NCBI GenBank assembly: GCA_051886655.1
Contig: JBJEYJ010000086.1
Location: 38-64,037, forward strand
DNA: 64,000 nucleotides
Direction of reading: 5' to 3'
Source of the DNA: Bacilli bacterium
GTDB taxonomy: Bacteria; Bacillota_I; Bacilli_A; RF39; UBA660
In this document: one piece after another, positions 44,695 through 62,301 of the stretch
Layout: every line of letters begins with the position of its first letter
How positions within the stretch are numbered: the stretch's first letter is position 1
Notes under the pieces: generated by a model
What the model was told of the DNA's origin: nothing
The model's database searches: none
Seen by the model: the letters and a program-made list of their open reading frames with translations, nothing else
Program-made: the position numbers and the translations under genes

Positions 44695-44726
44695 AAGTAT
44701 GAAGATAAGGAAAGGAGCTGATTGGT

Positions 44727-45044: not shown

Positions 45045-45367
45045 CAAAAGTAATAAAAATGGTAAAAAAAAGTAATGTATTAACAAAGCAAGAGAAAAGA
45101 GGACTAATCATAAAAGGACTAATAGAAACTATAGTCAATGTCTATAAGACTATAGTCAAAGTACCTTTTGCTATAATAGGAATGATACTTGTTACACTTG
45201 AAACACTATTACATACAATAGCAGAAGGAATAGAACTAATAGAACAAGTGTTTAGTTGTATAGTAATACTACTTGACGAGAAATTACCAGAATGTAGTTT
45301 AACAAAAGGTCAAGCAAGAGATAAATTGATAAAAGAAATAAAAACAAACACTTTTAAAGTAAAATAG
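45035..45367 (+). CDS. small membrane protein, 110 aa
   Basis: Track ORF with a hydrophobic core (FAIIGMILVTLETLL). Confidence 0.55.
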   Translation: MRITKVIKMVKKSNVLTKQEKRGLIIKGLIETIVNVYKTIVKVPFAIIGMILVTLETLLHTIAEGIELIEQVFSCIVILLDEKLPECSLTKGQARDKLIKEIKTNTFKVK

Positions 45368-45382
45368 AAAGGGTTGATAAAA

Positions 45383-45550
45383 ATGAAAAAATTTTTAATT
45401 TTAGTTATTTGTTTATTATTAGGATTTATAAGTGGCATTGTTTATACAATAGAAACAATGCAAGTAGACATAGTAAGTGAAACTAGCAAAGGTGCAGTTA
45501 TAAGAATAATAGTATTAAATCAATGGTTTAATCATTATGTAGAAAAATAA
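45383..45550 (+). CDS. small membrane or secreted protein of about 55 aa
   Basis: ATG after GGGTTGATAAAA. Translation MKKFLILVICLLLGFISGIVYTIE... Confidence 0.4.
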   Translation: MKKFLILVICLLLGFISGIVYTIETMQVDIVSETSKGAVIRIIVLNQWFNHYVEK

Positions 45551-45571
45551 AATAAAAAAATAAAAAAACTA

Positions 45572-45600
45572 TTGACAAAATACCTTTTAGGGTGTATAAT
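45572..45600 (+). promoter_or_regulatory. early promoter cassette (TTGACA, 17 nt, TATAAT)
   Basis: Consensus hexamers with an upstream A-tract. Confidence 0.6.
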
Positions 45601-45629
45601 AATTATAGAAAAAGGAAAGGTGATTTAAA

Positions 45630-46106
45630 ATGAAAAAAATATTTTTAGATTTAGATGGAACAGTAGCAAAGTTCAATGTGAGAAATGCTTTAAAAAGATT
45701 TGAAACAGAAAAAGGGTTCTTCGCAAAGTTAGGAGCATACAAAGGAATTGAAAAAATTAATGAAATGGCAAAATGCGGAAATGTTTACATAATTAGTGCA
45801 AGTCCTAATGAACAAGCAGATAGCGACAAAATGGAATGGATAGAAAAATACTTAAATAATGTACCAATGGAAAATAGACTAATTTGCAGATGTGGAGATA
45901 ATAAGGCAGAGTTCTTAAAAGCAAAAGGAATTGAAATTGACAAGAATTGCTACTTATTAGATGATTACACAAAAAACTTAATAGAGTGGGAAGAAGTTGG
46001 CGGAATTGGTATAAAAAGAATTACAAAAGTAGCAGACAATAGCAGAAAACTTTGGAAAGGTTTAGAAGTGAAAAATTTAGGCAACCTAGCAACAGTGGTT
46101 GCCTAA
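45630..46106 (+). CDS. HAD-superfamily 5'(3')-deoxyribonucleotidase-like phosphatase, 158 aa
   Basis: N-terminal FLDLDGTVAKF (DxDGT motif I). Size matches NT5C-type phage dNMP phosphatases. Confidence 0.65.
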   Translation: MKKIFLDLDGTVAKFNVRNALKRFETEKGFFAKLGAYKGIEKINEMAKCGNVYIISASPNEQADSDKMEWIEKYLNNVPMENRLICRCGDNKAEFLKAKGIEIDKNCYLLDDYTKNLIEWEEVGGIGIKRITKVADNSRKLWKGLEVKNLGNLATVVA

Positions 46107-46121
46107 TAGATAGGAGGAAAA

Positions 46122-46325
46122 ATGGAAGAAGTTTATCATTGCAAAAAATGTGGTAAAGAATTAGAGTGGGCTGATACAATAGACCATGAGGGAGGAATAC
46201 AAGAGGGTTACATAATAGAAAGACAAATTTGGACTTGTGAAGATTGCGACACCTCTTATGTAATAGAGCAAAGAGCGGATTTTCAAGAGCAAGATGTATC
46301 AACAATTTATTTTGAAGAAAGTTAA
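46122..46325 (+). CDS. zinc-ribbon protein, 67 aa
   Basis: CKKCGK...CEDCD four-Cys motif. Confidence 0.5.
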   Translation: MEEVYHCKKCGKELEWADTIDHEGGIQEGYIIERQIWTCEDCDTSYVIEQRADFQEQDVSTIYFEES

Positions 46326-46336
46326 TAGATTATGTA

Positions 46337-46364
46337 AACTGCGGCAACCGCAGTTTTTATTTTA
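46337..46364 (+). terminator. rho-independent terminator (AACTGCGG-CAAC-CCGCAGTT plus T-run), itself embedded in an inverted pair of ATTATGTAAAC / GTTTACATAAT
   Basis: Seen directly. Confidence 0.65.
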
Positions 46365-46462
46365 CATAATCTAGGGTAAACTAATTATGTAAACTATTCG
46401 CTGGCGCGCGTGCGGTTGTGGCGCGCCGTTTGACAGTTAACATAATCACTTGCAATAATTTG

Positions 46463-46496
46463 CGAACAAATGTACGCTTTTTCGAACAAATGTTCG
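46463..46496. promoter_or_regulatory. two tandem LexA 'Cheo' boxes: CGAACAAATGTACG (one mismatch) and CGAACAAATGTTCG (perfect Gram-positive SOS box)
   Basis: Firmicutes LexA consensus is CGAAC-N4-GTTCG. Centres are 20 bp apart. Confidence 0.55.
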
Positions 46497-46603
46497 CATC
46501 CCAAAACTCTTGATACTCTAGCGTTTGATCGGATCGCCGCAATCCTTACAGCCTCAAGGCATTGCCGCTCTTGAAAAAAATAAAAATTTTTTTTAAAAAA
46601 TGC

Positions 46604-46632
46604 TTGACAAACAATACAAATGGTAGTATAAT
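46604..46632 (+). promoter_or_regulatory. early promoter cassette (TTGACA, 17 nt, TATAAT)
   Basis: Consensus, with UP-like A/T tracts. Confidence 0.6.
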
Positions 46633-46663
46633 AATTACAGAGTTAAGGAAAGAGGGTATAAAA

Positions 46664-47362
46664 ATGAAAGTTGATAAAAGAAAAAAATATTTAATGGTTT
46701 TAGATGTAGAAACTACAAACAATATTATGGAAAAAGGAGCTCCAAACGATGGTTTGGTTTATGATATAGGTTTTACAATTATTGATAAACAAGGAAACAT
46801 TTACGCAAAAAGAAGTTTTGCAATTAAAGAAATATTTGATTGGAAAGAACTTATGTCTACTGCTTATTATGCTAAAAAATTACCTATTTATTATGAAAGA
46901 CTTAAACAAGGAAAAATGGAAAAGATTACAATTTGGCAAGCAAGAAAAAGAATACACCAAGCAATAGAATACTTTGGAATAAAAGAAGTGTATGCCTACA
47001 ATGCAAATTTTGATTATACAACATTAAATAATACAGTTAGATATTTAAGTGGAAGTGCTTGTCGTTGGTTTTTTCCTTATGGAACACAAATTTGTGATAT
47101 TTGGCACATTGCTTGTCAAACATTATGTCTACAAAAAACTTTCCAATGGGAAAATGTAAGAAATGCAAACAATAATTTAATTACAAATGCAGAAAGAGTG
47201 TTTGGCTATTGTGAACAAACAGATTTTGAAGAAGAACACACAGGGCTAGCCGATGCAATAGTAGAAAGTCAAATTTTAGCAAGATGTTTTAAATCACATA
47301 AAAGCATTGATAAAAAAATAAATAGGGCTTGTTGGAGAATACCACAACAAGCCACTGCCTAA
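46664..47362 (+). CDS. DEDDh-family 3'-5' exonuclease (DnaQ / RNase T-like), about 232 aa
   Basis: Exo I LVLDVETT, Exo II YAYNANFDY and Exo III HTGLADA motifs. RBS AAGGAAAGAGGG. All 6 Trp are TGG. Confidence 0.75.
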   Translation: MKVDKRKKYLMVLDVETTNNIMEKGAPNDGLVYDIGFTIIDKQGNIYAKRSFAIKEIFDWKELMSTAYYAKKLPIYYERLKQGKMEKITIWQARKRIHQAIEYFGIKEVYAYNANFDYTTLNNTVRYLSGSACRWFFPYGTQICDIWHIACQTLCLQKTFQWENVRNANNNLITNAERVFGYCEQTDFEEEHTGLADAIVESQILARCFKSHKSIDKKINRACWRIPQQATA

Positions 47363-47392
47363 AAAAAAAATAAAAATTTTTTTAAAAAAGTA

Positions 47393-47421
47393 TTGACAAA
47401 TAATACAAATGGTAGTATAAT
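47393..47421 (+). promoter_or_regulatory. early promoter cassette (TTGACA, 17 nt, TATAAT)
   Basis: Consensus. Confidence 0.6.
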
Positions 47422-47454
47422 AATTATAGAAGTTAGGAAAGAGGAGGAAAACAA

Positions 47455-47619
47455 ATGAAAGAGTTAGTAAAAAATTTAATAGGTGGAATAATTTTAACAG
47501 GTTTAGTACTAGGGTTCTTCTATTTACTAGGAATAGTAGAAATGATAATAGAAAGACATTTTTGGTTAATGATACCACTAACAATTTATGTAATCTATTT
47601 AATATTAAAAGAAATTTAA
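47455..47619 (+). CDS. small membrane protein of about 54 aa
   Basis: GAGGAGG RBS. Two predicted TM segments. Not in the track because it is shorter than 60 aa. Confidence 0.45.
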   Translation: MKELVKNLIGGIILTGLVLGFFYLLGIVEMIIERHFWLMIPLTIYVIYLILKEI

Positions 47620-47628
47620 AAAAAAGTA

Positions 47629-47657
47629 TTGACAAATATTAAAAAATAGAATATAAT
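47629..47657 (+). promoter_or_regulatory. early promoter cassette
   Basis: TTGACA, 17 nt, TATAAT. Confidence 0.55.
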
Positions 47658-47684
47658 ATAATAAAGAAAGGGAAGGTGATAACA

Positions 47685-47915
47685 ATGATAACTTTTAAGT
47701 CAATAACAGTTTTAAAGTTAATCCAAGAAAAACTTTTTAATCAAACAGAGGATTTTGAAGAAGAATATTACTTTATTGTAAATGATATTTTCTTTCCTAT
47801 TCAAGAAATATTTGTTTTTGAAGGTGGGATAGAAGTAAAAAATACATCTTATGATATAGACATTGAAATAAAAGCAAATGAAAAAGACTTGATCTGGAAA
47901 AAAGAAGAAGAATAA
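47685..47915 (+). CDS. hypothetical protein of about 76 aa
   Basis: GGAAGGTG RBS then ATG. Confidence 0.5.
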   Translation: MITFKSITVLKLIQEKLFNQTEDFEEEYYFIVNDIFFPIQEIFVFEGGIEVKNTSYDIDIEIKANEKDLIWKKEEE

Positions 47916-47941
47916 AAAATAAAAATTTTTTCAAAAAAGTA

Positions 47942-47970
47942 TTGACAAACAAAAGAAAAAGTAGTATAAT
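47942..47970 (+). promoter_or_regulatory. early promoter cassette
   Basis: TTGACA, 17 nt, TATAAT, followed by a long structured leader. Confidence 0.55.
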
Positions 47971-48058
47971 AAAAGTACAATAAGGGTAGGGTAAAAAGTT
48001 GATAATAACCTACGGTAGCAACTCATAAATAAAATTTTTGAAAGGTTAGGTGGTAGTT

Positions 48059-48427
48059 ATGGCAAACAAAGTAACTAAAAAAGAAAGATTTATGGAGTTA
48101 TTAAACATTAGAGAGGTAGCAGAAAATGCGGAAATGGTAGAGTTCATTAATCACGAACTAGAACTATTAAATAAAAAAAGTGCAAAAAGTGGTATGACAG
48201 CAAATCAAAAAGTAAATGAAGGACTAAAAGAGGTTATTACAGAACATTTAAAACTAGCAGGAAGAGCAATGACAATTACAGAACTACAAAGCGAAATTAA
48301 AGAAATTGCAGAATTAAGTAATCAAAAAGTAAGTGCATTACTAACACAACTTGTAAATACTAATGTAATCATTAGAGAGAAAGACAAAAAGACAACATTG
48401 TTCAAATACAACGATGAACAAATATAG
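48059..48427 (+). CDS. paralog family A member 1: small protein with a C-terminal winged-helix-like region (regulator?)
   Basis: Shares ELELL.KK.AKSGMTANQKVNE and a C-terminal SNQK.SALL..LV.T...KDKK.T.F block with 50242..50607 (plus strand) and 55363..55719 (minus strand). Confidence 0.6.
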   Translation: MANKVTKKERFMELLNIREVAENAEMVEFINHELELLNKKSAKSGMTANQKVNEGLKEVITEHLKLAGRAMTITELQSEIKEIAELSNQKVSALLTQLVNTNVIIREKDKKTTLFKYNDEQI

Positions 48428-48556
48428 ATAGAGGGCGAAAGCCCTTTATTTTTATGTTAAGTGCAGAAACAGATGTTTGGTTTCCAGTATGCAACTGATT
48501 ATGTAAACCAAAATTTTGTTCGCCGGCGCGTCGTGGATTGTGACGCGCCGTTTGAC

Positions 48557-48570
48557 AGAACAGTTGTTCG
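48557..48570. promoter_or_regulatory. LexA Cheo box AGAACAGTTGTTCG (perfect GAAC-N4-GTTC core)
   Basis: Intergenic, next to a GTTTACATAAT motif. Confidence 0.5.
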
Positions 48571-48630
48571 GTTTACATAATTTTTTTTCCAATTTTTTCC
48601 AGTTTACATAATCTGTTGACTCCTAAAACT

Positions 48631-48642
48631 GAACATCTGTTC
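48631..48642. promoter_or_regulatory. LexA Cheo box GAACATCTGTTC (perfect core)
   Basis: Lies 70 bp upstream of an early promoter -35. Confidence 0.5.
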
Positions 48643-48710
48643 ATACTAAATCTCGCAGATCAGCTTGGGAGTAAGGATCGCCGCATTATAAAGAATTTTT
48701 TAAAAAAATG

Positions 48711-48739
48711 CTTGACAAACACGCTATAAAGTAGTATAA
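48711..48739 (+). promoter_or_regulatory. early promoter cassette
   Basis: TTGACA, 17 nt, TATAAT. Confidence 0.6.
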
Positions 48740-48758
48740 TAATTATAGTAAAGGAAAG

Positions 48759-49223
48759 GTGATACAAATGAACTTGATTAAAAAATTTTATGTTAAACAA
48801 TTCGTACATTCTATTGATAAAAATATTAAAGTTAAATTTGGAAAAAATTTACAATGCGACATAGAAAATCAAACAATTTATGTAACTAATAAAACTGATA
48901 AAATAGATATTCAAACTTTTAAAGAGTATGTAAGAGAATTGAATAGTAAATGTTTTTTTAATACTTTTATTTTAGGAATATTACACGAAATAGGACATAT
49001 TTACACTTATGATGAAAGAGATGAGGAAGAATATTTTAGAGATAACGAACTATTAACACTACTTTTTCAAGAGAAAAAAATTGATGCCGTAGATTTTAAT
49101 AAATTCTATCTAAGATTAGAAATGGAGAAAAAAGCAACTCAATGGGCTATTGATTTTTCAATGTTAAATAAAGATTTTTGTAAAAAATATCAAAAAAAAT
49201 TAGGCAAAGAAATTTATAAATAG
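48759..49223 (+). CDS. HExxH metallopeptidase-like protein (ImmA/IrrE/DUF955-like?), 154 aa
   Basis: GILHEIGHIYTYDERDEEE: an HEIGH zinc-binding motif in a protein of about 150 aa, the size of ImmA-type anti-repressor proteases. Confidence 0.5.
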   Translation: MIQMNLIKKFYVKQFVHSIDKNIKVKFGKNLQCDIENQTIYVTNKTDKIDIQTFKEYVRELNSKCFFNTFILGILHEIGHIYTYDERDEEEYFRDNELLTLLFQEKKIDAVDFNKFYLRLEMEKKATQWAIDFSMLNKDFCKKYQKKLGKEIYK

Positions 49224-49226
49224 GGG

Positions 49227-49255
49227 TTGACAAAAGCCCCTAACTATGTTATAAT
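49227..49255 (+). promoter_or_regulatory. early promoter cassette
   Basis: TTGACA, 17 nt, TATAAT. Confidence 0.55.
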
Positions 49256-49281
49256 AGTATTATAGAAAGGAAGATGTAAAA

Positions 49282-49500
49282 ATGAGAAAAGATATTTTTA
49301 AAAATGCTAATCAAGTAAGAGCAACAGCCGAAGACTATAATGCAAAATGTTGTAAAAGATATAAAGGACAAGGAAAAATATTAAGAAGATACGCAAGACA
49401 CAAATTAAATGAACATGATAAAGAAGAAATAAGACAGGTATTAGCATTTCAAAAAAATATAAATTTTTACAAAATTAAAAAGGAAAGGAATTGATAATTA
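49282..49500 (+). CDS. basic small protein of about 71 aa
   Basis: Track ORF. Ends TGA then TAA (TGATAA). Confidence 0.45.
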
Positions 49501-49838
49501 TGAAAAAAGAACCAATGCAAATTTTGTATATTTTAAGAAATGGAGAAACAAATCAGTATAAAATAGGAATTACAGATAATCTAAATAGAAGATTATCTCA
49601 ACTACAAACTGGTTGTCCAGAAGAATTACAGATAATTAAATTATGGAAACATTATCAAAGAAACATAGTCAAAAGATATGAAAGAGTGTTGCATAGATAT
49701 TTTACAAAATGTGGTTGTAGAATAAGACCAAATGGAGAATGGTTTAATTTAAAACAAGTTGATATAAATTATTTATGTAAACCAAATACAATAGCAGAAC
49801 AAAATGAGATAATAGAAAATTTATTAGAAATGATGTAA
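49500..49838 (+). CDS. GIY-YIG / T5orf172-type domain protein, about 112 aa
   Basis: ILYILRNGETNQYKIGITDNLNRRLSQ matches the Y..L....-YKIG.T.N...R pattern. Confidence 0.5.
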   Translation: MKKEPMQILYILRNGETNQYKIGITDNLNRRLSQLQTGCPEELQIIKLWKHYQRNIVKRYERVLHRYFTKCGCRIRPNGEWFNLKQVDINYLCKPNTIAEQNEIIENLLEMM

Positions 49839-49872
49839 AGTGCGGGCTTCCGCACTTTTTCTACATAACTCT

Positions 49873-49990
49873 AGAACAAATGTTTCCACGAACGATCGTT
49901 TGGAGCCCGTTTCGCAGGTTTACATAATAACTTAACATTTTTCATTATGAAAAATTATTTTCAGATCGAACATTTGTACTCCTAAAACTC
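49873..49990. promoter_or_regulatory. cluster of three one-mismatch Cheo-like boxes (AGAACAAATGTTTC, CGAACGATCGTTTG, CGAACATTTGTACT) interleaved with GTTTACATAAT motifs
   Basis: Intergenic region upstream of the double promoter at 50045 to 50164. Confidence 0.35.
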
Positions 49991-50044
49991 GTCGCAGTTT
50001 ACATAATGTATTGCAAATAAAATAAAAATTTTTTTTAAAAAGTA

Positions 50045-50073
50045 TTGACTTTTTATAATAATTATAGTATAAT
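50045..50073 (+). promoter_or_regulatory. promoter (TTGACT, 17 nt, TATAAT)
   Basis: First promoter of a tandem pair. Confidence 0.5.
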
Positions 50074-50135
50074 AATTATAGTCAAAAGGAAATAGAAAAT
50101 CTTAAAAATTAATTTTAAGAAATTTTAAAAAACTC

Positions 50136-50164
50136 TTGACAAACAAAACAAAAAATGTTATAAT
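50136..50164 (+). promoter_or_regulatory. promoter (TTGACA, 17 nt, TATAAT)
   Basis: Second promoter of the tandem pair. Its leader contains a GAAC..GTTC hairpin. Confidence 0.55.
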
Positions 50165-50241
50165 AATTATAACAAAGGAAGATAAAAAACCTTGAGAACT
50201 TCCTGTAAAGGTTCATAAAAATAAAAATAAAAAATTGAAAG

Positions 50242-50607
50242 GTGGAATGTATTATGGCAAACAAAAAAACAAAAAGAGAATTATTTGGAGAAATCAGAGA
50301 AATTGTAGTAGGAAATGAAGAACTTGTAAACTTCATAGACCACGAATTAGAACTATTAGACAAGAAACACGCAAAAAGTGGAATGACAGCAAATCAAAAA
50401 GTAAATGCTGAAATAGTTGACAAATTATACAGTGCATTAGTTGAAGTTGAAACAGCCCTAACAATAAATGAAATCCAAGAACAATTTGATTTTACCAAAG
50501 AATTAAGTAATCAAAAAATAAGTGCATTATTAAAGAAATTAGTTGATACTGGAAAAGTTGAAAGAATAAAAGACAAAAAAGTTACAAGATTTCAAGCAAT
50601 AGTATAG
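50242..50607 (+). CDS. paralog family A member 2, 121 aa
   Basis: See 48059..48427. C-terminus is SNQKISALLKKLVDTGKVERIKDKKVTRF. Confidence 0.6.
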   Translation: MECIMANKKTKRELFGEIREIVVGNEELVNFIDHELELLDKKHAKSGMTANQKVNAEIVDKLYSALVEVETALTINEIQEQFDFTKELSNQKISALLKKLVDTGKVERIKDKKVTRFQAIV

Positions 50608-50661
50608 AGTAAGGGGCAAATGCCCCTACTCAAAAAAAAATAAAATTTTTTCAAAATACTA

Positions 50662-50690
50662 TTGACAAATTTTCTCAATAGTAGTATAAT
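50662..50690 (+). promoter_or_regulatory. early promoter cassette
   Basis: TTGACA, 17 nt, TATAAT. Confidence 0.55.
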
Positions 50691-50714
50691 AATAATAGAA
50701 AAGGAGTTGATAGT

Positions 50715-51125
50715 ATGATAGTAAAAATTAAAAATAAGGAAGTAAAAATTCCAGAAGAAGAAATTAAAAAGAATATGAAAATACTTGACATAACAGAAGA
50801 AGAAGCAATACAAATGTATTTAGAAGATGAAGGTTATGAGGTTAATGAAGAAGTAGAAAAGTTGACTAAAAAGGCAAAAGAAAATAATATAAAAATAAGG
50901 GGCGACAGTGATAAACCTAGAGCCAAGCGAAATATAGAACGCAAAACAAATCCAGTTAAAGAAGAAGTTATACAAATATTAGCACAGACACTAGCAAATT
51001 ATGGAAACCTTAATATTCATAATGTAAAAGTGGAAAATATTGGAAAACTTATTACTTTTAATGTAGGAGAGCGTCAATTCAAACTAGATTTAATAGAAAA
51101 AAGACCTCCAAAAGCCTCAAAATAG
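50715..51125 (+). CDS. paralog family B member 1, 136 aa
   Basis: Shares LTKKAKEN...DKPRAKR...NIGKLI.F...KLDLI with 54038..54439 on the minus strand. Confidence 0.6.
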   Translation: MIVKIKNKEVKIPEEEIKKNMKILDITEEEAIQMYLEDEGYEVNEEVEKLTKKAKENNIKIRGDSDKPRAKRNIERKTNPVKEEVIQILAQTLANYGNLNIHNVKVENIGKLITFNVGERQFKLDLIEKRPPKASK

Positions 51126-51353
51126 GGCTTTTTACAAAAGAAAAAGGCTAAAAGGCTTGAAAAATCTTGTCTTTTGGTTGAAAATGGCGGAAATGAGCGA
51201 ATAATCGCTCATTTTTTCGCGTTTTAGGCGAACTTTTGTTTAAATTTACATAAAATAATGTAAATTTTTGTAAAAAATGGTTGAAAGTGTTGCGGCTGTA
51301 GGGATTTAGCAGGTTTACATAATTTGCCGGCTCGGCGTGGAGCGCCTTTGAGC

Positions 51354-51367
51354 CGAACACGCGTTCT
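51354..51367. promoter_or_regulatory. LexA Cheo box CGAACACGCGTTCT
   Basis: Perfect GAAC-N4-GTTC core in a long non-coding region. Confidence 0.45.
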
Positions 51368-52032
51368 AAAATACCTATATGCGATTTTTTCGTAGGTTTT
51401 GGGCTTTATGCTCTTTTTCTCTAGCTTCCTGAAACCTCTTAGGTTTACATAATAACTTTACAGGCGCGATTCCAGATTCTTTTAACCTACATCCGCGCAA
51501 TATGCAAAATTGCCATAGTTTCAGGCTTCTTTATGACTTGATTTTTTTAAAAATTTTTGATATAATACTAAAAAAACTTAAAATATTGCCGCATAAAACC
51601 AAAAATAAAGTTGACATTTTAAGCCAACTTTTTTCTTTAAAATCATTCTCATGCTTTCATATTTGCCCCATCTACTTTTAACTAAAATTTTAAACAAAAG
51701 CAAATGTATCTGCCTAATAAAAAATTTTACTTCCATCTCTATACTTTAACTAACTGGGGGCCGCGCTCTTTTTAAGGACAGACTTTCCATTATATCATCT
51801 TTATTATATTATATCAAATTTTTTATAAAATATCAACTTTAATAAAATTTGCCACAATTTTTTAAATTATTTTCCTTGATCCTTCCTATTTCACATGAGT
51901 GCAATAGTCAAGCAAAATGAGAAGCAAAATAATATCTCTAACTTTTACAAATTAAAAAAAGAAGAAAAAAATATTCTTTTCTTTTATTGCGGAGACGGAG
52001 ATACGAGGATCTGTTAACCCAGGTCGCCGCAT

Positions 52033-52061
52033 TTGCAAATTATAAAAAAATATGATATAAT
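52033..52061 (+). promoter_or_regulatory. promoter (TTGCAA, 17 nt, TGaTATAAT extended -10)
   Basis: Preceded by a GGTCGCCGCA element. Confidence 0.5.
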
Positions 52062-52087
52062 AAATATATAAATAGTAAGGAGGAAAA

Positions 52088-52474
52088 GTGAAAATAATGA
52101 AAAATATGAATGTCAAAGATATGTTAAAAGCAGGTGTATCTGCAAAAGACTTAAGAAATAAACTAGAACAAGAAATAGAAAAAGCAACAGCCGCAATAAA
52201 AGAAGAAGCTGAAGATAAAAAAGTTGGTTTAATGAGAAAAAGATTAGTTGATGCGGCAATTGATTATATGCAAGCTATGGACTGGTTAGAAGAAGGATTA
52301 AATGAAGAAGACAGGCAAGACTTAGTTGAAGTATTAAAAGATTTAGAAGATGAGCTTGGAACTTATGTAGATATTATAAAATTATTGATTAGAAAAGAAA
52401 CTAATAAAAATAAAAAGAAAGATAATGGTTCTACTGCTGAAGATATAATCAATAAATTTTTAGGTACACTATAA
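52088..52474 (+). CDS. helical hypothetical protein, 128 aa
   Basis: Track ORF. AAGGAGG RBS. Confidence 0.6.
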   Translation: MKIMKNMNVKDMLKAGVSAKDLRNKLEQEIEKATAAIKEEAEDKKVGLMRKRLVDAAIDYMQAMDWLEEGLNEEDRQDLVEVLKDLEDELGTYVDIIKLLIRKETNKNKKKDNGSTAEDIINKFLGTL

Positions 52475-52489
52475 TATATATAATATAAT

Positions 52490-52527
52490 ATAAAAAAAGA
52501 AGAGGTTTTATACCTCTTCTTTTTTGC
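52490..52527. terminator. bidirectional rho-independent terminator (GAAGAGGT-TTTA-TACCTCTTC flanked by A- and T-runs) between convergent units
   Basis: Seen directly. Confidence 0.6.
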
Positions 52528-52617
52528 TTTGTTTTTTGAGTAGCGGAATATAATAAAAAATAGTACGAATTCTATTTTTATAAGGATTGAGAAATAAAAC
52601 ATTTAAAACGCGCTCGG

Positions 52618-52740
52618 GCCACCACAAATTCCACAAATGCCACATATCTACAAATCTACATATCTATATACTCGCATATCTACACTATATACTACATATC
52701 TACATATCTATATACATACATTATATCTCCATATACTTGC
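52618..52740. repeat. array of short direct repeats: CCACAAAT x3 followed by about six ATATCTA(C/T)A units
   Basis: Seen directly: ccacaaattccacaaatgccacatatctacaaatctacatatctatatactcgcatatctacactatatactacatatctacatatctatatacat... Confidence 0.75.
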
Positions 52741-52797
52741 ACGCACCTTATTTCTCTATCTCTCCAATTCCTCATTTCTATTTTCAAAAAGTAATTC

Positions 52798-53508
52798 TTA
52801 ATTTTTCACTTCAATTAACGCATTTCTTTCTACAAGAGTTCCTCTTACTACTTGACAACCAATCTTCTCCTGCAATTCCTTTAAAAATGTTAAAAAGTTC
52901 ATATCCGTCATATTTGTCATCTCTTCTAATACATCTCACGCCTCATCTTTTGTTATCTCTCCTGCCGCAACCATTCCCTTTACTAATATCTGCTTTTCAG
53001 TTGTATCTCCAAAATATTTAGTTTGTAAATTCTTTTTTATTTGCTCTTCCTCAGGAGTTAAAAAACTATATTCTCCAGTTTCTTTATCTCTTTTACATCA
53101 CAAATAAATACATTTACCTAATTTTCCTCCACTCATAAAAGGTTTTCCATATAATTCATTTCTACCTTCTCTTGTATATTTTACAATAGTATCAGGTTGT
53201 CTAGTTACCCCCTCTTTATTTAATAATTCACATATCTCATTTCCAACCCTTGTACAACTATCTAATCCATTTTCGCTTCAAACCTCATCAATTTTTTTAA
53301 CAACCATCTGCTTTGTTTTTGCTTGCTGCTTTTGATAAACAGGTTCATAAATTTCTGTAATAACAACTTTACCTTTTTCTTCGTAAAAATCAGCAAATAA
53401 TTTCAATTCCTCTAATTTTTTTTCTTTATTATTTCTAAAAGTTGCATAACTAATTCCAAATCATTCAGCAAGTTCTTTAGAAGATATTTTTCCAATTTGT
53501 AATTGCAC
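52798..53508 (-). CDS. HTH DNA-binding protein of about 236 aa containing four in-frame TGA codons (candidate late-gene regulator or replication-organiser)
   Basis: GAGAGGAGAG RBS then GTG start. N-terminal KISSKELAEWFGISYATFRNN HTH-like segment. TAA near 52798. Absent from the track because of the TGA codons. Confidence 0.5.
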
Positions 53509-53588
53509 TTTTTTATCTCTCCTCTCAATAATATATAAATTTTTTACTAATTAAATATTACAAAATTAACCAAATGTCATAAAAAATT

Positions 53589-53646
53589 TTGTAACATTTT
53601 TTTCCGCCCATAGAAATAATATTATGGGCGGAAAAAAATGTTACAA
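53589..53646. repeat. 58-bp near-perfect palindrome: 24-bp arms TTGTAACATTTTTTTCCGCCCATA and its reverse complement, separated by a 10-bp spacer
   Basis: Seen directly. Confidence 0.8.
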
Positions 53647-53860
53647 AATAATAAAAGTAATAGGCGGTTGGGGGAACCTCCATATCCGAGCTTCGCTCTC
53701 CATGGAGTCACCCAACCGATAGGTAGGTAAGAGTAATCCGTAAAAAGTATATTTAGTTTCGTTTTTTCGTTAGATAAAGATTTTTTTAAAAGTAGCTTTT
53801 TTTTATATGATGCGGCAATTCTTGCTCTATGGCCCGCCTAATCGAGTTCCCGCATAATAA
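53640..53860 (-). ncRNA. GC-rich structured non-coding island with a long imperfect hairpin (CGGTTGGG...CCCAACCG); candidate ncRNA
   Basis: No ORF. Local GC is much higher than background. Nested stems. Shares a GGAACTCG(A)TTAGG motif with 55160..55362. Confidence 0.3.
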
Positions 53861-53863
53861 AAG

Positions 53864-54031
53864 GGACTAATTGTCCCTTATAATAACCTTATCAGATTTA
53901 AAGAAATTTCTTATAATCTTTTCAGCTTCGCTTTTATCTATTTCTATAATATATTCTCCACCGTCATAATATCCTGCATATTTATGGATATCTATTAAAT
54001 TTTTCGTTTCTTCTATTTGATTAAAATTATA
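53864..54031 (-). CDS. small protein of about 55 aa
   Basis: AAAGGAGGAAATAGGGG then TTG start. Translation MYNFNQIEETKNLIDIHKYAGYYDGGEYIIEIDKSEAEKIIRNFFKSDKVIIRDN. Confidence 0.35.
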
Positions 54032-54037
54032 CAACCC

Positions 54038-54439
54038 CTATTTCCTCCTTTGAATTAAATCTAATTTATATTTATTACCGTCACATTCAAATTCTATAAG
54101 TTTACCAATATTAGTTATTTTTAAATGTTCTACACCATCTAAATTAGTTAGCATTTGAGCAACTGCGGCAATTATTCTTTCTTTTGTTGGATTTTCCTTT
54201 CTAGTAACTTCTCTCTTTGCTCTTGGCTTATCTTCAGCTTTTGCTTCATGAATTGTTGCGGTAATCCTATTTTCTTTTGCTTTTTTAGTTAATCTTTCTT
54301 CTTGTTCATTTTTAATATAATCATTATCGGCTAACCATGTATCTATGGCTTCTTGCATTGATATTTCAAGAGTATCAACTAATCTATCTATTTCCTCATC
54401 TGGAATTTCAATTATTTTATTTTCAAATTTATATTTCAT
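54038..54439 (-). CDS. paralog family B member 2, 133 aa
   Basis: See 50715..51125. Driven by a TTGACT, 17 nt, TGaTATAAT promoter near 54470. Confidence 0.6.
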   Translation of the reverse strand: MKYKFENKIIEIPDEEIDRLVDTLEISMQEAIDTWLADNDYIKNEQEERLTKKAKENRITATIHEAKAEDKPRAKREVTRKENPTKERIIAAVAQMLTNLDGVEHLKITNIGKLIEFECDGNKYKLDLIQRRK

Positions 54440-54605
54440 AAATAACCACCCTTCCTTTTTATTATTTATATAATAATTATATCATATTTTTTTTAAAAAG
54501 TCAATAGACAGGTTAAACCTATACACCAAAAATTTTTAAGGAGCGGCAACCGATGGTATATAGATACATTACTCACGAATAAAAAAGCGACATACATGCC
54601 GCCAG

Positions 54606-54917
54606 CTATTTATTAAATAATACTGTATTATATATTGAAGTTAAATATTGTTTTCCATCTTTACTCTTGATCTTAATTTTACCATCGTCTAAACTATTCC
54701 AAGTATCAACGTCAACTTCTATATATTCACTTCCTATTGTTATATATGCTTTTGTATATAATGTATTTACATTTGTCATATCCATATTACTTGTCATAGA
54801 TGGCGGAACCACTATAATATATGCTATTCCTCCAATAAGTATAAAAACTACTAATGCTATTGCAATAATTCCAATTGCATCTAACACATCATAATACATT
54901 CTAATTAACCTCCTCAT
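54606..54917 (-). CDS. membrane protein, 103 aa
   Basis: TM segment IIAIALVVFILIGGIAYIIVV. Confidence 0.55.
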   Translation of the reverse strand: MRRLIRMYYDVLDAIGIIAIALVVFILIGGIAYIIVVPPSMTSNMDMTNVNTLYTKAYITIGSEYIEVDVDTWNSLDDGKIKIKSKDGKQYLTSIYNTVLFNK

Positions 54918-55104
54918 ACATAATCAATAAAGTTAAGTATATTCCAGTTTCAGTCTTCTTTTCTATAATATTATCTTCTATTGTTGTAACAATAGTATCT
55001 GTACTCATTTTTATATCTATAATCTTTTTATCTAGCATCCATTTATTGATAACATCTTTTGCTTTAACATCATTTGGTGCTATTGTAAAATATTCTATTT
55101 TCAT
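54901..55104 (-). CDS. hypothetical protein of about 67 aa; start at MKIEY...
   Basis: Track ORF 54901..55155, with an internal ATG preceded by AAAGAAAGGAATG. Confidence 0.45.
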   Translation of the reverse strand: MKIEYFTIAPNDVKAKDVINKWMLDKKIIDIKMSTDTIVTTIEDNIIEKKTETGIYLTLLIMYEEVN

Positions 55105-55159
55105 ATTTTCATTCCTTTCTTTAATAAATAAGAGATAGAATGATTCCCCGCTCATCCTA

Positions 55160-55362
55160 TCTCTACCTAAGTTTGTGCTACTTGGGAAGCTGTTCTTTAT
55201 TTATCCTCGCATCCCCTAACGAGTTCCTATATTTTACTAGCTGTAACACTAGGAGGCTTTTACTATCGGTTAGAGACCATACCTCAACGGTATTATTTAT
55301 ACTCGACTCAAGTGTCCGCAGACCTTAAGCCCCGAGTTAGAGTGCGGCAATCGCCGCATCTC
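55160..55362 (-). ncRNA. GC-rich structured 3' region between two genes (GCGGCGATTGCCGC hairpin and others, ending in an 8-bp-stem terminator-like hairpin); candidate ncRNA
   Basis: About 200 nt with no ORF. GC content far above background. Shares a motif with 53640..53860. Confidence 0.3.
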
Positions 55363-55719
55363 TTATTCACTCTCTTTTATAGAGAATAATGTAACCTTTT
55401 TGTCTTTTACTCTTACTACTCTATTAGTATCTACTAATTTCTTTAAAAGAGCAGACATTTTTTGATTTGAGAAATCAGCTATTGTTTCATCTTCAGCTTG
55501 GATTTCAGCAACAGTAGCAGGTTTTCCTAATCTTGCTAATGCTTCATATACAACTTCTACTAATCCTTCATTTTCTTTTTGTGTTTTTGTTTGAGCAAAT
55601 TTTCTATTTGCTAATCTTTCAATTTCTTTTTCGCAGAATTCTACTGCTCCTTGTTCTCCAGCCTCAACAGCTAAATCTCTTAAAACTCCTAAATAATCTT
55701 TTTTTGTCATTTTTTCCAT
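55363..55719 (-). CDS. paralog family A member 3, 118 aa
   Basis: C-terminus SNQKMSALLKKLVDTNRVVRVKDKKVTLF. Preceded by two tandem TTGATT, 17 nt, TATAAT promoters (55773..55801 and 55858..55886). Confidence 0.6.
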   Translation of the reverse strand: MEKMTKKDYLGVLRDLAVEAGEQGAVEFCEKEIERLANRKFAQTKTQKENEGLVEVVYEALARLGKPATVAEIQAEDETIADFSNQKMSALLKKLVDTNRVVRVKDKKVTLFSIKESE

Positions 55720-55857
55720 AATAAATCACCTCATTTAACCTTTCTTTATATTTTTATTTTTTCTATACTTATATTATATAATAATTTTTTTATATAATCA
55801 ATTATTATTTCTTTAAGGTGCATAGAAACCTTTTTTTCTTTTTCTTTTGTTAATATA

Positions 55858-55886
55858 ATTATATAATATTTTTTTTATATAATCAA
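55858..55886 (-). promoter_or_regulatory. module-2 promoter (TTGATT, 17 nt, TATAAT on the minus strand)
   Basis: One copy of a roughly 45-bp cassette repeated at least 11 times. Confidence 0.5.
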
Positions 55887-55899
55887 CTTAGTGGTACTT

Positions 55900-56376
55900 A
55901 TGTTATTTTACAAGTCCTATATGCCCCACTAAGTATTATGTAGGCGACTTGGTATTCCTTTCGCACTTTAAGGTATGCTGCCAGGGTTACTCAGGCTACC
56001 TTTGATATATATTAGCCTATCAAAAAAATAGTTACCAACTACAACCACGAGGAGGTTTATATCGTATGTAGTTATCTATAGATGGAAGCTTTGCTCACTG
56101 GTTTACCAACCTTTATATATAAGAGCGGCGGATGAGGAAATAATAATTTAATTTTTAGAAAGGAATTTTTACTATAACAGACCGCCGCATAATTAGGAAG
56201 GGGGGCAAAGAGTGTTTTCACCAAATCTATAAACTATCACCAAATTTCTTCGGTGAGATGAGACTCGAACTCATCTTCTCTCTTACCAATAGGATTTTAT
56301 AAGCTCTTGCCTTTTGTTCCTATCTTCAACGATTATCTCTAAACCGTCAACATTTATATTTTTCTTTTCTTTTTCT
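55900..56376 (-). ncRNA. non-coding transcript candidate of about 470 nt, driven by the module-2 promoter at 56383..56411. GC-rich hairpins and a tRNA T-arm-like element (GATGAGTTCGAGTCTCATC).
   Basis: No ORF longer than about 12 codons on the minus strand. Consensus promoter at its 5' end. Multiple stems (GCGGCGG..CCGCCGC, CTTAGTGG..CCACTAAG). Confidence 0.35.
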
Positions 56377-60756: not shown

Positions 60757-62301
60757 CTATTTTATTACTTCATATCTTTCACTCATTAGTTTTTCATACA
60801 TTATATCTATTCCTTTTACTCCACGAATTATTTGTTCAAATAAAACTGGTGTGCATCCTGATACAAATGATACATTTGGTCCAGAATCAAGAATAGTATT
60901 ATCTCTCGCATCAACATTCCAATATACTAGATGTGGAAGTATTAAACCATCTTCCGCCCATTCTTGTCTTATTTTTTCCATTTCTGTTGCTGTATTTTCT
61001 TTTGTCCAACAATCGTCATCATCATCATACCAATATCTTCCTGAACCAGATCCACTATCTATTTCCATATCAGAAATTACTATAAGTGTAGTAGGAATGT
61101 CTTCTTCTCTTATGCCATCTTTAAGTATCATATTTTTTAGCATATTAAACACTGCTGGTAAATTAGTATTTTCACATTGATTTCTTCTATATACTCTTGC
61201 TACTTTATCTGCAAAATCTACTCCTTCAAATTTTATTAATTCAGGATGTTGTGAGAATGTAATAAAATAATCTTTGAAAGGACCGCCTATTCTTTCAGCG
61301 CAGTACATACCTAATGATAATGCAACATCTATTGGCTTAGTAGAACCATTATAAGAATCCATACTTCCAGATGTATCTATAATTGTCATTATTTTACAAG
61401 CCTCTCCTTTTAAATAATCTGGTAAATTTTCCCAATATTTTTCTACCATTTTTCTATCAGTGTCAGACATATCTATATCATCATTCCAATATCCAATATT
61501 ATTAGTTACTTTATTTACTACTTCATATGGGAATAAAGTCTTAGCATTTACTTTTGTATCTTTATCTTTTGCAAAAGTTTCATATTTTTTAGCAATTATA
61601 TCTCTTCTTGCAAAAGCATTCTTATATATTAATCCAGCTTTTGAAGGAATTTTGTCAAATTCAATTTCGTCCCATCTATTTTCACTCATTAATCTTTCAA
61701 CAATATTTATTTTCTTTCTTAATATAGCTAATACTTTTCTATATTGTTTATGAGTCATCTTTAAGTATTTTCTTACTTTATTTGCCATTTTTTTAGTGTG
61801 ATGTGCAGAAGCATTTTCAGATGGTAACCATTTTCCTAAAAGTGAAGGTGTTTTGCTTTCTAAGTCAAGAGCTAATTGTTCTCTTACTAAAAATAAAGCA
61901 TAATCTTCCATTTTAGTTCCATCAGTTGCATATAATAAATCATCCCATCTGCCATACTCAGATAATTGATTTAAGTTTCTTTTTGCGGCATCTGGATAAT
62001 TATCGCATAACCATTTAAAACATATACGGAAAAATCTTCTTTCGCCTTGACCTCCACGAATATCTCTTAAATAAAATAAACATTTTAAAGCCATAATTTC
62101 ATCTTCTTCTATTGCATTTTTAAACAATAGAATGCAATCAGCTTCACTTCTTTTTCTATAAGCTCCACCAAGAGCAAACATATCATATACAGCTGAGTTA
62201 GTTGCTTTATGAGCTACTGCTCCATTTTCTGTATATTTATAATTTGTTATGTCTTTTAAACTGTTTATAAAACTATTACAATTTTCAAACATTTTTTCCA
62301 A
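60757..62301 (-). CDS. TROVE-like (DUF2828-type) plus von Willebrand A domain protein, 514 aa; Ro60-like architecture
   Basis: C-terminal vWA MIDAS motif IIDTSGSMDS. The N-terminal ~300-aa region preceding the vWA MIDAS motif matches the domain order of Ro60/TROVE and DUF2828 proteins (TROVE-like assignment by architecture only; HHpred needed). TAG stop followed by a hairpin terminator. Promoter at 62356..62384. Confidence 0.55.
   Translation of the reverse strand: MEKMFENCNSFINSLKDITNYKYTENGAVAHKATNSAVYDMFALGGAYRKRSEADCILLFKNAIEEDEIMALKCLFYLRDIRGGQGERRFFRICFKWLCDNYPDAAKRNLNQLSEYGRWDDLLYATDGTKMEDYALFLVREQLALDLESKTPSLLGKWLPSENASAHHTKKMANKVRKYLKMTHKQYRKVLAILRKKINIVERLMSENRWDEIEFDKIPSKAGLIYKNAFARRDIIAKKYETFAKDKDTKVNAKTLFPYEVVNKVTNNIGYWNDDIDMSDTDRKMVEKYWENLPDYLKGEACKIMTIIDTSGSMDSYNGSTKPIDVALSLGMYCAERIGGPFKDYFITFSQHPELIKFEGVDFADKVARVYRRNQCENTNLPAVFNMLKNMILKDGIREEDIPTTLIVISDMEIDSGSGSGRYWYDDDDDCWTKENTATEMEKIRQEWAEDGLILPHLVYWNVDARDNTILDSGPNVSFVSGCTPVLFEQIIRGVKGIDIMYEKLMSERYEVIK

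What the first reader, a model, noticed from the sequence alone, without database searches (positions are those of the whole stretch)
50242..55719. Inverted duplication of a two-gene cassette (family A plus family B) around a central short-repeat array
On the plus strand lie A (50242..50607) and B (50715..51125). On the minus strand lie B' (54038..54439) and A' (55363..55719), in mirror order. The A/A' C-termini are about 80 % identical (SNQK.SALLKKLVDT..V.R.KDKKVT.F) and B/B' share LTKKAKEN, DKPRAKR, NIGKLI and KLDLI. Near the axis lie a bidirectional terminator, the CCACAAAT/ATATCTACA repeat array (52618-52740), a 550-bp AT-rich ORF-free stretch with iteron-like CCATCT..TTTAACTAA repeats (51666 and 51732), and a 58-bp perfect palindrome (53589-53646). 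The arrangement resembles a replication origin or partition/centromere region flanked by duplicated regulators.
Basis: seen in the sequence. Interest (0 to 1): 0.6.

Follow-up and report, generated by a model that had tools for sequence, protein, structure and literature searches.

The report
Mirrored phage early-gene paralog pairs
Two old, diverged copies of a small two-gene module (a winged-helix DNA-binding protein plus an orphan partner) face each other where two early-gene arms of a stop-codon-recoded, roughly 140-kb gut phage converge. The centre is a transcription-termination zone holding a conserved gene that needs the phage's altered genetic code, and nothing found here shows it to be a replication origin.

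Summary
A/A' (43% identity, E=6e-24) and B/B' (46%, E=7e-34) are true paralogs in mirror order. The window holds a third A copy at 48050-48427. The duplication is ancient: related ~130-150 kb uncultured phage contigs carry separate orthologs of each copy. In two lineages the two A-B pairs lie in tandem on one arm, so mirror symmetry is not required. A is a winged-helix protein. B is an orphan family with no Pfam or PDB match.

Several props of the origin/centromere reading fail:
- The "AT-rich" stretch has average GC.
- The "iterons" recur at chance level.
- DnaA boxes are not enriched.
- The skew flip coincides with the strand switch and has terminus polarity.

The palindrome and the repeat array belong to a central 236-aa gene (52798-53508, minus strand), not to A/B. 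Its four Trp codons are all TGA. Orthologs are TGA- or TAG-recoded in other recoded lineages. A long hairpin upstream, with compensatory arm changes, and a purine-rich tract downstream accompany it in several lineages.

Best reading: this is the convergence zone of two sigma-70-driven early arms, with paralogous DNA-binding modules and a code-switch-gated central gene. Function is inferred, not shown.

The parts
48050..48427 (+). A3, third paralog of family A (probable start ATG 48059); own perfect TTGACA-17-TATAAT promoter at 47942-47970
   Evidence: 53% identity to A, E=2e-34; tblastn; promoter
50136..50164 (+). perfect sigma-70 consensus promoter of A; a second 11/12 promoter lies at 50045-50073
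50242..50607 (+). A: small protein with two N-terminal helices and a C-terminal winged helix; likely start ATG 50254 (117 aa)
50662..50690 (+). perfect sigma-70 consensus promoter of B
50715..51125 (+). B: 136-aa orphan protein with two small domains joined by a basic, low-confidence linker; last gene of the long plus arm
51311..51453 (+). conserved non-coding module ending the plus arm: GTTTACATAAT (51311-51323 and 51441-51453) flanking a GC hairpin (51328-51355) and a GAACACGCGTTC (GAAC-N4-GTTC) box (51355-51366)
   Evidence: about 80% identity to L002/L007/L009/L010, above the 72% of the adjacent coding DNA; motif enrichment
51538..51836 (.). promoter-dense spacer: plus promoter 51538-51566, tandem minus promoters 51789-51836, minus terminator-like hairpin 51607-51631. 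No ORF, average GC. In L007/L009 the homologous tandem minus promoters precede a C236 paralog
52088..52474 (+). g128, acidic helical protein of unknown function, own promoter 52033-52061; orthologs in L007, L009, L011, L024
52493..52525 (.). bidirectional intrinsic terminator at the convergence point
   Evidence: 14-bp stem, T-runs on both strands; fold z -6.5 and -7.2
52598..52797 (-). purine-rich, C-poor tract just 3' of C236 (G31:C3 over the first 120 nt). It contains the 8-nt-period array (52622-52737) and ends in GTGGTGGCCCGAGCGC (52610-52625 on the plus strand)
   Evidence: equivalent tracts or motif in L013, L019, L020, L021, L024
52798..53508 (-). C236: conserved 236-aa protein with an HTH-like N-terminus (by eye only). 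All 4 Trp codons are TGA. It is the only gene with internal TGA in 42.6-62.4 kb
53586..53649 (-). 27-bp perfect hairpin followed by T6 on the minus strand, 77 nt upstream of the C236 start. Its position is conserved while the arm sequences differ between lineages
53650..53879 (-). GC-richer (39%) structured spacer with two further hairpins and a terminator-like hairpin (53861-53879) after g55. The GCGG..TTGCCGC hairpin is also seen in L015
53867..54034 (-). g55, small gene between B' and the hairpin
   Evidence: L012 gene call
54038..54439 (-). B', paralog of B; promoter 54476-54504 (TTGACT-17-TATAAT with TG)
55363..55719 (-). A', paralog of A; promoters 55773-55801 and 55858-55886 (TTGATT type)

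Best explanation
The locus is the place where two convergently transcribed early-gene arms meet in a TGA-to-Trp recoded, SPbeta/Enterococcus-EF1-related phage of about 140 kb, probably infecting Bacillota.

Each small gene in the arms has its own host-type sigma-70 promoter. A (winged helix) and B (orphan) form a two-gene module kept in at least two diverged copies per genome. One copy closes the long arm. The other sits upstream of a conserved central gene, C236.

The 'axis' is a termination and insulation zone. It holds a bidirectional intrinsic terminator. It also holds a very long hairpin with a T-run that separates the early A'-B' unit from C236.

C236 has no consensus sigma-70 promoter, and all its Trp codons are TGA. 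It can therefore be made only after the phage has switched the cell to the altered code.

Inferred mechanism: A/B pairs are early-expressed DNA-binding regulators that have subfunctionalised. The two arms carry different promoter flavours and different operator-like motifs. C236 is a delayed, code-switch-gated factor acting later in the programme.

Shown: paralogy, conservation, promoters, terminators, hairpin covariation and recoding. Inferred: timing, DNA binding by B and C236, and all regulatory roles.
For: - Paralogy statistics.
- Separate orthologs of each paralog exist in L007, L009, L013 and L024, at 61-76% identity to A'/B' and 62-67% to A/B.
- The order A..B-C236 converging on B-A recurs in L013, L017, L019 and L024. 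L015 and L020 instead have the pairs in tandem.
- Ten perfect TTGACA-17-TATAAT promoters lie on the plus strand at 44.6-50.7 kb. Seven promoters one mismatch from consensus lie on the minus strand at 51.8-58.2 kb, six with TTGATA and one with TTGACT. With one mismatch allowed, the window total is 23 against 3.0 expected.
- Terminators.
- Late block 1-42.5 kb is TGA-rich (for example 25 TGA: 4 TGG in one 2801-aa ORF). Early genes use TGG.
- The four TGA codons of C236 fall on invariant or near-invariant Trp columns.
- Orthologs carry 3 TGA (L019), 2 TGA (L017) or 6 in-frame TAG read as Gln (L021). They use the standard code in L013, L015 and L020.
- The hairpin is present upstream of C236 in 7 lineages. 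At the 8 outer-arm positions of the six lineages tabulated, 48/48 cells pair, with 2-4 pair types per position.
- A fold.
- In L013 an RpoD-like sigma factor sits between A and B in the same operon, an association with transcription control.
- Terminase is 46-47% identical to Enterococcus and Geobacillus phages of 134-142 kb. A has weak homologs in those Enterococcus phages.
Against: - No expression data, so 'early' rests on promoter consensus and standard-code usage only.
- B has no recognisable fold (pLDDT 64.5, no Foldseek, Pfam or PDB match).
- The HTH of C236 was seen by eye only (no Pfam, PHROG or PDB match).
- The function of the purine-rich repeat tract is unexplained. A gene-linked repeat tract next to a DNA-binding-like protein is also what an initiator-plus-iteron origin looks like.
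- No suppressor tRNA was found in the window, so the code-switch machinery is unseen.
- The NJ tree does not cleanly resolve two ancient B orthogroups in the most distant lineages.
Confidence: 0.55

Rival explanations
1. The centre is a replication origin. C236 is the initiator, the 8-nt-period purine tract directly 3' of its gene is the iteron array, the long palindrome is a structural origin element, and A/B are accessory DNA-binding proteins.
For: - The protein gene, short-repeat tract and large palindrome are linked across lineages.
- The tract sequence differs between lineages, as expected if it co-evolves with a specific binding protein.
- There are weak sub-threshold Phage_rep_O / phrog_345 hits for A3 (E=0.007 and 0.0095).
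Against: - No Rep/O/DnaA-type domain in C236.
- No AT-rich unwinding region.
- No DnaA-box enrichment.
- The tract shrinks to about 30-45 nt in L013, L019 and L020.
- Skew polarity is terminus-like and confounded by gene orientation.
- An initiator that cannot be translated until the late code switch would be odd for a replication function. In the recoded phages described by Borges et al. (bioRxiv 10.1101/2021.08.26.457843), replication genes stay in standard code.
Confidence: 0.12
2. The centre marks a physical feature of the linear virion DNA: a terminal-repeat boundary, a packaging site, or a T5-like injection-stop region between a first-injected early segment and the rest of the genome.
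For: - Like the T5 first-step-transfer region, the arm holds a 5'-deoxyribonucleotidase homolog (45630-46106) and a T5orf172-domain gene (49491-49838), with many strong promoters.
- T5 iss regions are described as non-coding, full of repeats, inverted repeats and palindromes (Davison, bioRxiv 10.1101/866236).
- Two independent assemblies end just upstream of A' (L002 and L012).
Against: - T5 iss is defined by ordered DnaA boxes, which are absent here.
- Other assemblies run straight through the region (L007, L009, L010).
- Contig ends in k-mer assemblies are weak evidence.
- The terminase gene is about 12 kb away.
Confidence: 0.07
3. The centre is a plasmid-prophage partition locus: a centromere-binding protein (A, which has a TubR-like winged-helix fold class, or C236) plus a centromere made of short direct repeats.
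For: Winged-helix protein A; a direct-repeat array.
Against: - No ParA, ParM or TubZ NTPase among the ORFs scanned in 47-60 kb.
- No integrase or lysogeny marker was seen in the ORFs scanned.
- The array is linked to C236, not to A.
Confidence: 0.03
4. The mirror pair is a recent inverted duplication or an assembly artefact.
For: None beyond the mirror order itself.
Against: - The copies share only 43-46% amino-acid identity.
- Each copy has its own orthologs in other phages.
- An independent contig is 100% identical over 12.35 kb.
Confidence: 0.01

Closest known systems
Multi-promoter early / host-takeover regions of large virulent phages (SPO1 host-takeover module; T5 pre-early region). SPO1 from my own knowledge; T5 from Davison, bioRxiv 10.1101/866236
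   Same: Dense arrays of small genes, each with its own strong host-type promoter; a dNMPase and a T5orf172-type gene are present; large non-coding stretches with palindromes and repeats.
   Different: No sequence homology of A, B or C236 to SPO1 or T5 proteins was found. No DnaA-box pattern. Terminal-repeat location is not shown.
Stop-codon recoding confined to late genes of gut phages (Borges et al., bioRxiv 10.1101/2021.08.26.457843; TGA-recoded 'Agate' phages of about 127-154 kb)
   Same: TGA is used as sense in structural and packaging genes, and standard code is used in the early region.
   Different: Here a single small regulator-like gene embedded in the early region is fully recoded, and its orthologs are recoded with TGA or with TAG in different lineages. 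Membership in the Agate clade was not tested. No suppressor tRNA lies in the window.
MecI/BlaI, ArsR/SmtB and Fur/Zur winged-helix repressors
   Same: The C-terminal roughly 65 residues of A superpose on their DNA-binding domains (Foldseek probability 1.0, rmsd about 2-2.5 A). The recognition-helix region SNQK.SAL.KKLV is the most conserved part across paralogs.
   Different: The winged helix is C-terminal, preceded by two helices. All Pfam and NCBIfam hits are below threshold. No sensor or dimerisation domain of those families is present.
Initiator-plus-iteron origins (lambda O/ori, plasmid Rep/iterons) and type II/III partition centromeres (ParR/parC, TubR/tubC); from my own knowledge
   Same: A gene for a DNA-binding-like protein lies next to an array of short direct repeats, with a large palindrome nearby.
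   Different: No family signature, no AT-rich region, an 8-nt rather than about 11-22-nt repeat unit, variable tract length, no NTPase.

Membership tests
Iteron-type replication origin | Adjacent initiator protein with a recognisable Rep/O/DnaA-type domain | tested here: not met
   C236 has no Pfam, PHROG, NCBIfam or PDB match. A3 has only sub-threshold Phage_rep_O (17.3 bits against a 28.7 cutoff).
Iteron-type replication origin | Three or more direct repeats that bind the initiator | tested here: inconclusive
An 8-nt-period array exists at 52622-52737 and analogous tracts exist in other lineages, but binding is untestable here.
Iteron-type replication origin | AT-rich unwinding element and/or DnaA boxes | tested here: not met
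   GC is 26.7% against 27.0% for the window. TTATCCACA with up to 1 mismatch: 20 found against 21.7 expected, none in 51-54 kb.
Iteron-type replication origin | Cumulative GC-skew minimum or read-coverage peak | tested here: not met
   There is a local maximum, not a minimum, at about 51-52 kb, coincident with the strand switch. Coverage is not testable with these tools.
Plasmid/phage partition locus | ParA/ParM/TubZ-type NTPase next to the centromere-binding protein | tested here: not met
   None among the ORFs scanned in 47-60 kb.
Winged-helix (MarR/BlaI/ArsR-like) DNA-binding proteins, for A | Three-helix bundle plus beta-hairpin wing | tested here: met
   AF2 model pLDDT 82, elements H50-68, H75-81, H90-102, E106-111, E114-119. 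The leading Foldseek matches are winged-helix domains, but all have E>1e-3.
Winged-helix (MarR/BlaI/ArsR-like) DNA-binding proteins, for A | Score above a curated family threshold (TrmB, Penicillinase_R, etc.) | tested here: not met
   TrmB 20.8 against 25.6 bits; Penicillinase_R 19.8 against 22.6.
Code-4 (TGA=Trp) recoded phage | In-frame TGA at conserved Trp positions; ORFs fragmented under the standard code | tested here: met
Code-4 (TGA=Trp) recoded phage | Phage-encoded TGA suppressor tRNA | tested here: not met
   ARAGORN and Rfam find no tRNA in the 64-kb window. The rest of the genome is unseen.
Intrinsic (Rho-independent) terminator | GC-containing stem-loop followed by a U-run | tested here: met
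   52493-52525 on both strands. Hairpin 53586-53649 followed by T6 on the minus strand.
HDV-like / theta ribozyme (side observation at 56003-56072) | Rfam gathering score; cleavage site abutting a tRNA 3' end | tested here: not met
   38.8 bits against a gathering score of 44. No tRNA is adjacent.

The most novel reading that the evidence does not exclude
A-(sigma)-B / hairpin / C236 / purine tract is a conserved developmental switch of a large group of uncultured Bacillota phages. C236 is deliberately written in the phage's alternative code: TGA in some lineages, TAG in another. It therefore appears only after the suppressor system is active. It then acts on the hairpin, the tract or the early promoters, either to shut off the early arms and start the late programme or to fire replication. 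The two A-B pairs would be its early-expressed DNA-binding partners with divided roles.
Probability: 0.2. Interest if true: 0.7.

Novelty: new member of a known kind. Interest (0 to 1): 0.35.

Why it matters
As an 'origin flanked by duplicated regulators' the finding does not hold up, and taken alone it is ordinary phage early-region architecture.

Following it up did expose a conserved, uncharacterised core in phages of about 130-150 kb. That core is an orphan protein gene that is recoded whenever the phage is recoded, with either stop codon. It is preceded by a covarying long hairpin and followed by a repeat tract.

If that gene is a regulator, it would be a concrete and testable example of stop-codon recoding used as a timing device for a control protein rather than for lysis or structural genes.

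The locus also defines two protein families with no Pfam or PDB match that always travel as a pair. Family A has 452 hits at E<=0.001. Family B has 910 cluster representatives at 50% identity.

Tried and rejected
- **DnaA-box reading of the ATATCTACA array:** rejected. No enrichment, and no match within 1 mismatch in the array.
- **AT-rich unwinding element and iterons at 51666/51732:** rejected.
- **TRAP-like (G/U)AG repeat binding site:** considered and dropped. The spacers are mostly 5 nt where 2-3 nt are needed (own knowledge; not tested further).
- **tRNA or suppressor tRNA in the GC-rich spacers:** none found.
- **Rfam families for the palindrome:** only spurious miRNA and snoRNA hits.
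- **B fold search:** low-confidence model, no meaningful match. A profile of 42 diverse B relatives gave no Pfam or PDB match.
- **C236:** no Pfam, PHROG, NCBIfam, PADLOC or PDB match.
- **GenBank phage collection:** the 10-kb region has no DNA match, and B and C236 have no tblastn match.
- **IMG/VR scan with the C236 profile:** only 2 loci were found, possibly because the back-translated patterns miss TGA-encoded Trp.
it rested on L007/L009, which carry a distant C236 paralog. It was revised.

Full report
**1. Context**

The window has 27% GC and looks like a tailed phage. A portal-like ORF (by eye), a terminase and a virion structural protein (PHROG match) lie on the minus strand in 1-42.5 kb. 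The terminase is 46-47% identical to those of Enterococcus phages H1, VRE9_4, EF1/EF5 and Geobacillus virus E3 (134-142 kb), and more distantly to SPbeta-type YonF.

Under the standard code the late block is shattered. Reading TGA as sense restores ORFs of 2801 aa (25 TGA, 4 TGG) and 1559 aa (15 TGA, 2 TGG). Genes in 42.6-52.5 kb (plus strand) and 53.8-62.4 kb (minus strand) are intact in the standard code and use TGG. The finding therefore lies in the standard-code, presumably early, part of a code-4 recoded phage. This matches the layout described for TGA-recoded gut phages by Borges et al. (bioRxiv 10.1101/2021.08.26.457843). Clade membership was not tested.

Two MAG contigs carrying a C236 homolog are labelled Bacillota and Bacilli.

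**2. The observation**

- A/A' and B/B' are genuine paralogs (E=6e-24 and 7e-34).
- A third A copy lies at 48050-48427. tblastn in code 4 finds no more.
- The terminator, the array and the palindrome exist as described.
- Two descriptive claims fail. The 'AT-rich' stretch has average GC, and its 'iteron' repeats occur at chance frequency.

**3. Age and conservation of the duplication**

Family B has 536 database relatives at E<=0.001. A profile search finds 910 representatives at the 50% clustering level, nearly all 125-150 aa. Family A has 452 relatives.

Contigs of related phages were fetched. In L007/L009, each window paralog has its own ortholog:
- A to 9527 (67%)
- A' to 15933 (74%)
- B to 9947 (63%)
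- B' to 14767 (62%)

The order A..B-C236 converging on B-A recurs in L013, L017, L019 and L024. L001 has A-A-B converging on B-A-A. L015 and L020 carry both A-B pairs in tandem on the long arm. What is conserved is therefore two A-B modules per genome, with A upstream of B. Symmetry about an axis is not conserved.

A rough NJ tree groups the window's B' with the C236-linked copies of L007 and L013, and B with the arm copy of L007. It does not resolve the deepest lineages.

**4. What A and B are**

- **A:** the AF2 model (pLDDT 82) has two N-terminal helices and a C-terminal winged helix. The leading Foldseek matches are winged-helix DNA-binding domains such as MecI/BlaI, ArsR/SmtB and Zur. Sequence-family hits are all sub-threshold. 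The putative recognition helix (SNQK.SAL.KKLV) is the most conserved segment across paralogs.
- **B:** a low-confidence two-domain model joined by a basic linker. No fold, Pfam or PDB match was found, even with a 42-member profile. The resemblance of its N-terminus to a ribbon-helix-helix was seen by eye only.
- **Association:** in L013 an RpoD-like sigma factor lies between A and B. This links the module with transcription control.

**5. Transcription signals**

- Ten perfect TTGACA-17-TATAAT promoters lie on the plus strand between 44.6 and 50.7 kb, one before almost every small gene.
- The minus arm has seven promoters one mismatch from consensus, six with TTGATA and one with TTGACT. With one mismatch allowed, the window total is 23 against 3.0 expected.
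- The direct and inverted 'repeats' D1-D4 and I3-I7 are these promoters.
- The arms meet at the bidirectional terminator 52493-52525.
- The plus arm's intergenic spacers also contain GAAC-N4-GTTC boxes (4 exact against 0.23 expected) and GTTTACATAAT motifs (26 against 6.7 expected). Both cluster at 44.4-51.5 kb.
- The last such module (51311-51453) is about 80% identical in relatives. The minus arm lacks these motifs.

The two A-B copies therefore sit under visibly different control signals.

**6. The centre belongs to another gene**

On the minus strand, 52798-53508 encodes a 236-aa protein if TGA is read as Trp. It has 234 database homologs (the 120 listed are 52-77% identical). The four TGA codons align with invariant or near-invariant Trp columns. 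It is the only gene with internal TGA in 42.6-62.4 kb.

Recoding of its orthologs:

| Locus | State of the C236 ortholog |
|---|---|
| L019 | 3 TGA |
| L017 | 2 TGA |
| L021 | 6 in-frame TAG, translated as Gln by the source database |
| L013, L015, L020 | standard code |

Features linked to C236:
- In every fetched lineage C236 is the last or near-last gene of a short arm converging on the long arm. A non-coding stretch of 260-530 nt lies upstream of it.
- That upstream stretch holds a long hairpin 26-106 nt before the start codon. The arms differ between lineages: TGTAACA-T7 in the window and L019, TTACCACA-T6 in L020, AGTATTTAC-T8 in L021, CCAACGAG-T4 in L015, TTAGCTTTGCGCTA-T6 in L009.
- In the six lineages tabulated, all 48 outer-arm cells pair, with 2-4 pair types per position. 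Fold z-scores across the seven lineages range from -3.7 to -10.8. The arms were chosen by a palindrome search, so pairing is partly by construction. The evidence is the recurrence of such a palindrome at the same place.
- In the window the hairpin is followed by T6 on the C236 strand. No consensus sigma-70 promoter follows it.
- Directly 3' of the stop codon, several lineages (window, L013, L019, L020, L021, L024) carry a purine-rich, C-poor short-repeat tract of variable length, about 30-190 nt. It ends in a GTGG..CCG(A)-like motif. The window's ATATCTACA array is this tract.

**7. Origin or centromere?**

Against:
- no AT-rich element and chance-level iterons
- no DnaA boxes
- no initiator or partition families
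- terminus-type skew polarity that simply tracks gene orientation, with the opposite flip at 42.5 kb
- non-conserved symmetry
- recoding of the only candidate initiator

For: the linkage of a DNA-binding-like gene with a lineage-specific repeat tract and a palindrome.

I keep an origin at about 0.12, a physical-end or injection-stop analogue at about 0.07, and a partition locus at about 0.03. The tract could also act as a C-rich, G-poor Rho-loading site on antisense read-through from the plus arm. That is inference only.

**8. Verdict**

The best-supported reading is a convergence and termination zone between two differently controlled early arms. Each arm carries a copy of an ancient A-B DNA-binding module. 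At the centre sits a hairpin-insulated gene gated by the code switch. Function remains inferred. Read-coverage analysis and binding assays would decide.

Noticed in passing
window 1-42573 (minus strand): The late, structural block uses TGA as a sense codon: for example 17839-26244 is 2801 aa with 25 TGA and 4 TGG, and the terminase 38538-40271 has 5 TGA. Early genes use TGG. No suppressor tRNA, and no tRNA at all, was found in the 64-kb window.
   Followed up: partly
window 56003-56072 (-), with 56074-56234 (-) and 56257-56275 (-): A sub-threshold HDV-like ribozyme hit (RF02682, 38.8 bits against a gathering score of 44, E=1.7e-5) has the conserved GGCUAA core. Its 5' end abuts a roughly 160-nt closed stem domain. 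A T-arm-like hairpin (GAUGAGUUCGAGUCUCAUC) lies just upstream. The whole 55887-56352 stretch is an insertion relative to L007/L009/L010, flanked by a duplicated promoter. No tRNA is adjacent, unlike the described theta ribozymes (PMC10879173).
   Followed up: partly
L019 4253-4328 and 5166-5739 (+): In a related phage, the slot upstream of the A-B-C236 unit holds a tRNA-Lys(UUU) and a full-length ROOL RNA (RF03087, 175.7 bits). L020 also has a tRNA-Lys(UUU) at 13392-13464. L001 has a tRNA-Met and a tmRNA-like hit.
   Followed up: no
window 44424-51366, intergenic spacers of the plus arm: GAAC-N4-GTTC boxes resembling the Gram-positive LexA/Cheo box are clustered here (4 exact against 0.23 expected). 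One (48558-48569) lies in the spacer of a TTGACA-18-CATAAT promoter. The same spacers hold GTTTACATAAT motifs (26 against 6.7 expected), GC hairpins and TCGCCGCAWT (3 against 0.01 expected). Similar motifs occur in L013 and L019, including CGAACATATGTTCG.
   Followed up: partly
L021 8001-8717 (+): The C236 ortholog in this 146-kb contig has six in-frame TAG codons, read as Gln in the database protein, and four TGG. The same gene is thus recoded under a different code (TAG to Gln) in another lineage.
   Followed up: partly
L013 617-1429 (+): A phage-encoded RpoD-like sigma-70 factor (regions 2-4; 355 bits to NF004208 RpoD, below that model's 555-bit curated cutoff) is inserted between the A and B homologs, upstream of C236.
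   Followed up: no
window 44.6-50.7 kb versus 51.8-58.2 kb: The two arms use different promoter flavours: perfect TTGACAAA...TATAAT on the plus arm, and mostly TTGATAAT...TATATAAT on the minus arm. This suggests different strength or timing.
   Followed up: no
window 60757-62301 (-), 62385-62957 (-), 49491-49838 (+), 45630-46106 (+): A DUF2828/DUF7788 protein that PHROGs labels 'RNA-binding protein' (phrog_850, E=2e-116); an HNH endonuclease; a T5orf172/MUG113 (GIY-YIG-like) protein; and a 5'-deoxyribonucleotidase homolog. Whether the RNA-binding protein pairs with the structured RNA at about 56.1-56.3 kb is only a lead.
   Followed up: no
L007 12812-13642 (-) and 13812-14222 (-): Relatives carry extra genes in the centre that the window lacks: a homing-endonuclease-like gene (PHROG hit E=1.3e-5) and a DUF6291 protein. 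The convergence zone is therefore a variable-content hotspot.
   Followed up: no
window 51575-51790: Convergent promoters (plus strand 51538-51566; minus strand 51789-51836, in tandem) bracket about 225 nt with no ORF and a minus-strand terminator-like hairpin (51607-51631). This could be an overlapping sense/antisense small-RNA pair, or a remnant of the C236-paralog gene that occupies this position in L007/L009. Fold z is only -1.6.
   Followed up: partly
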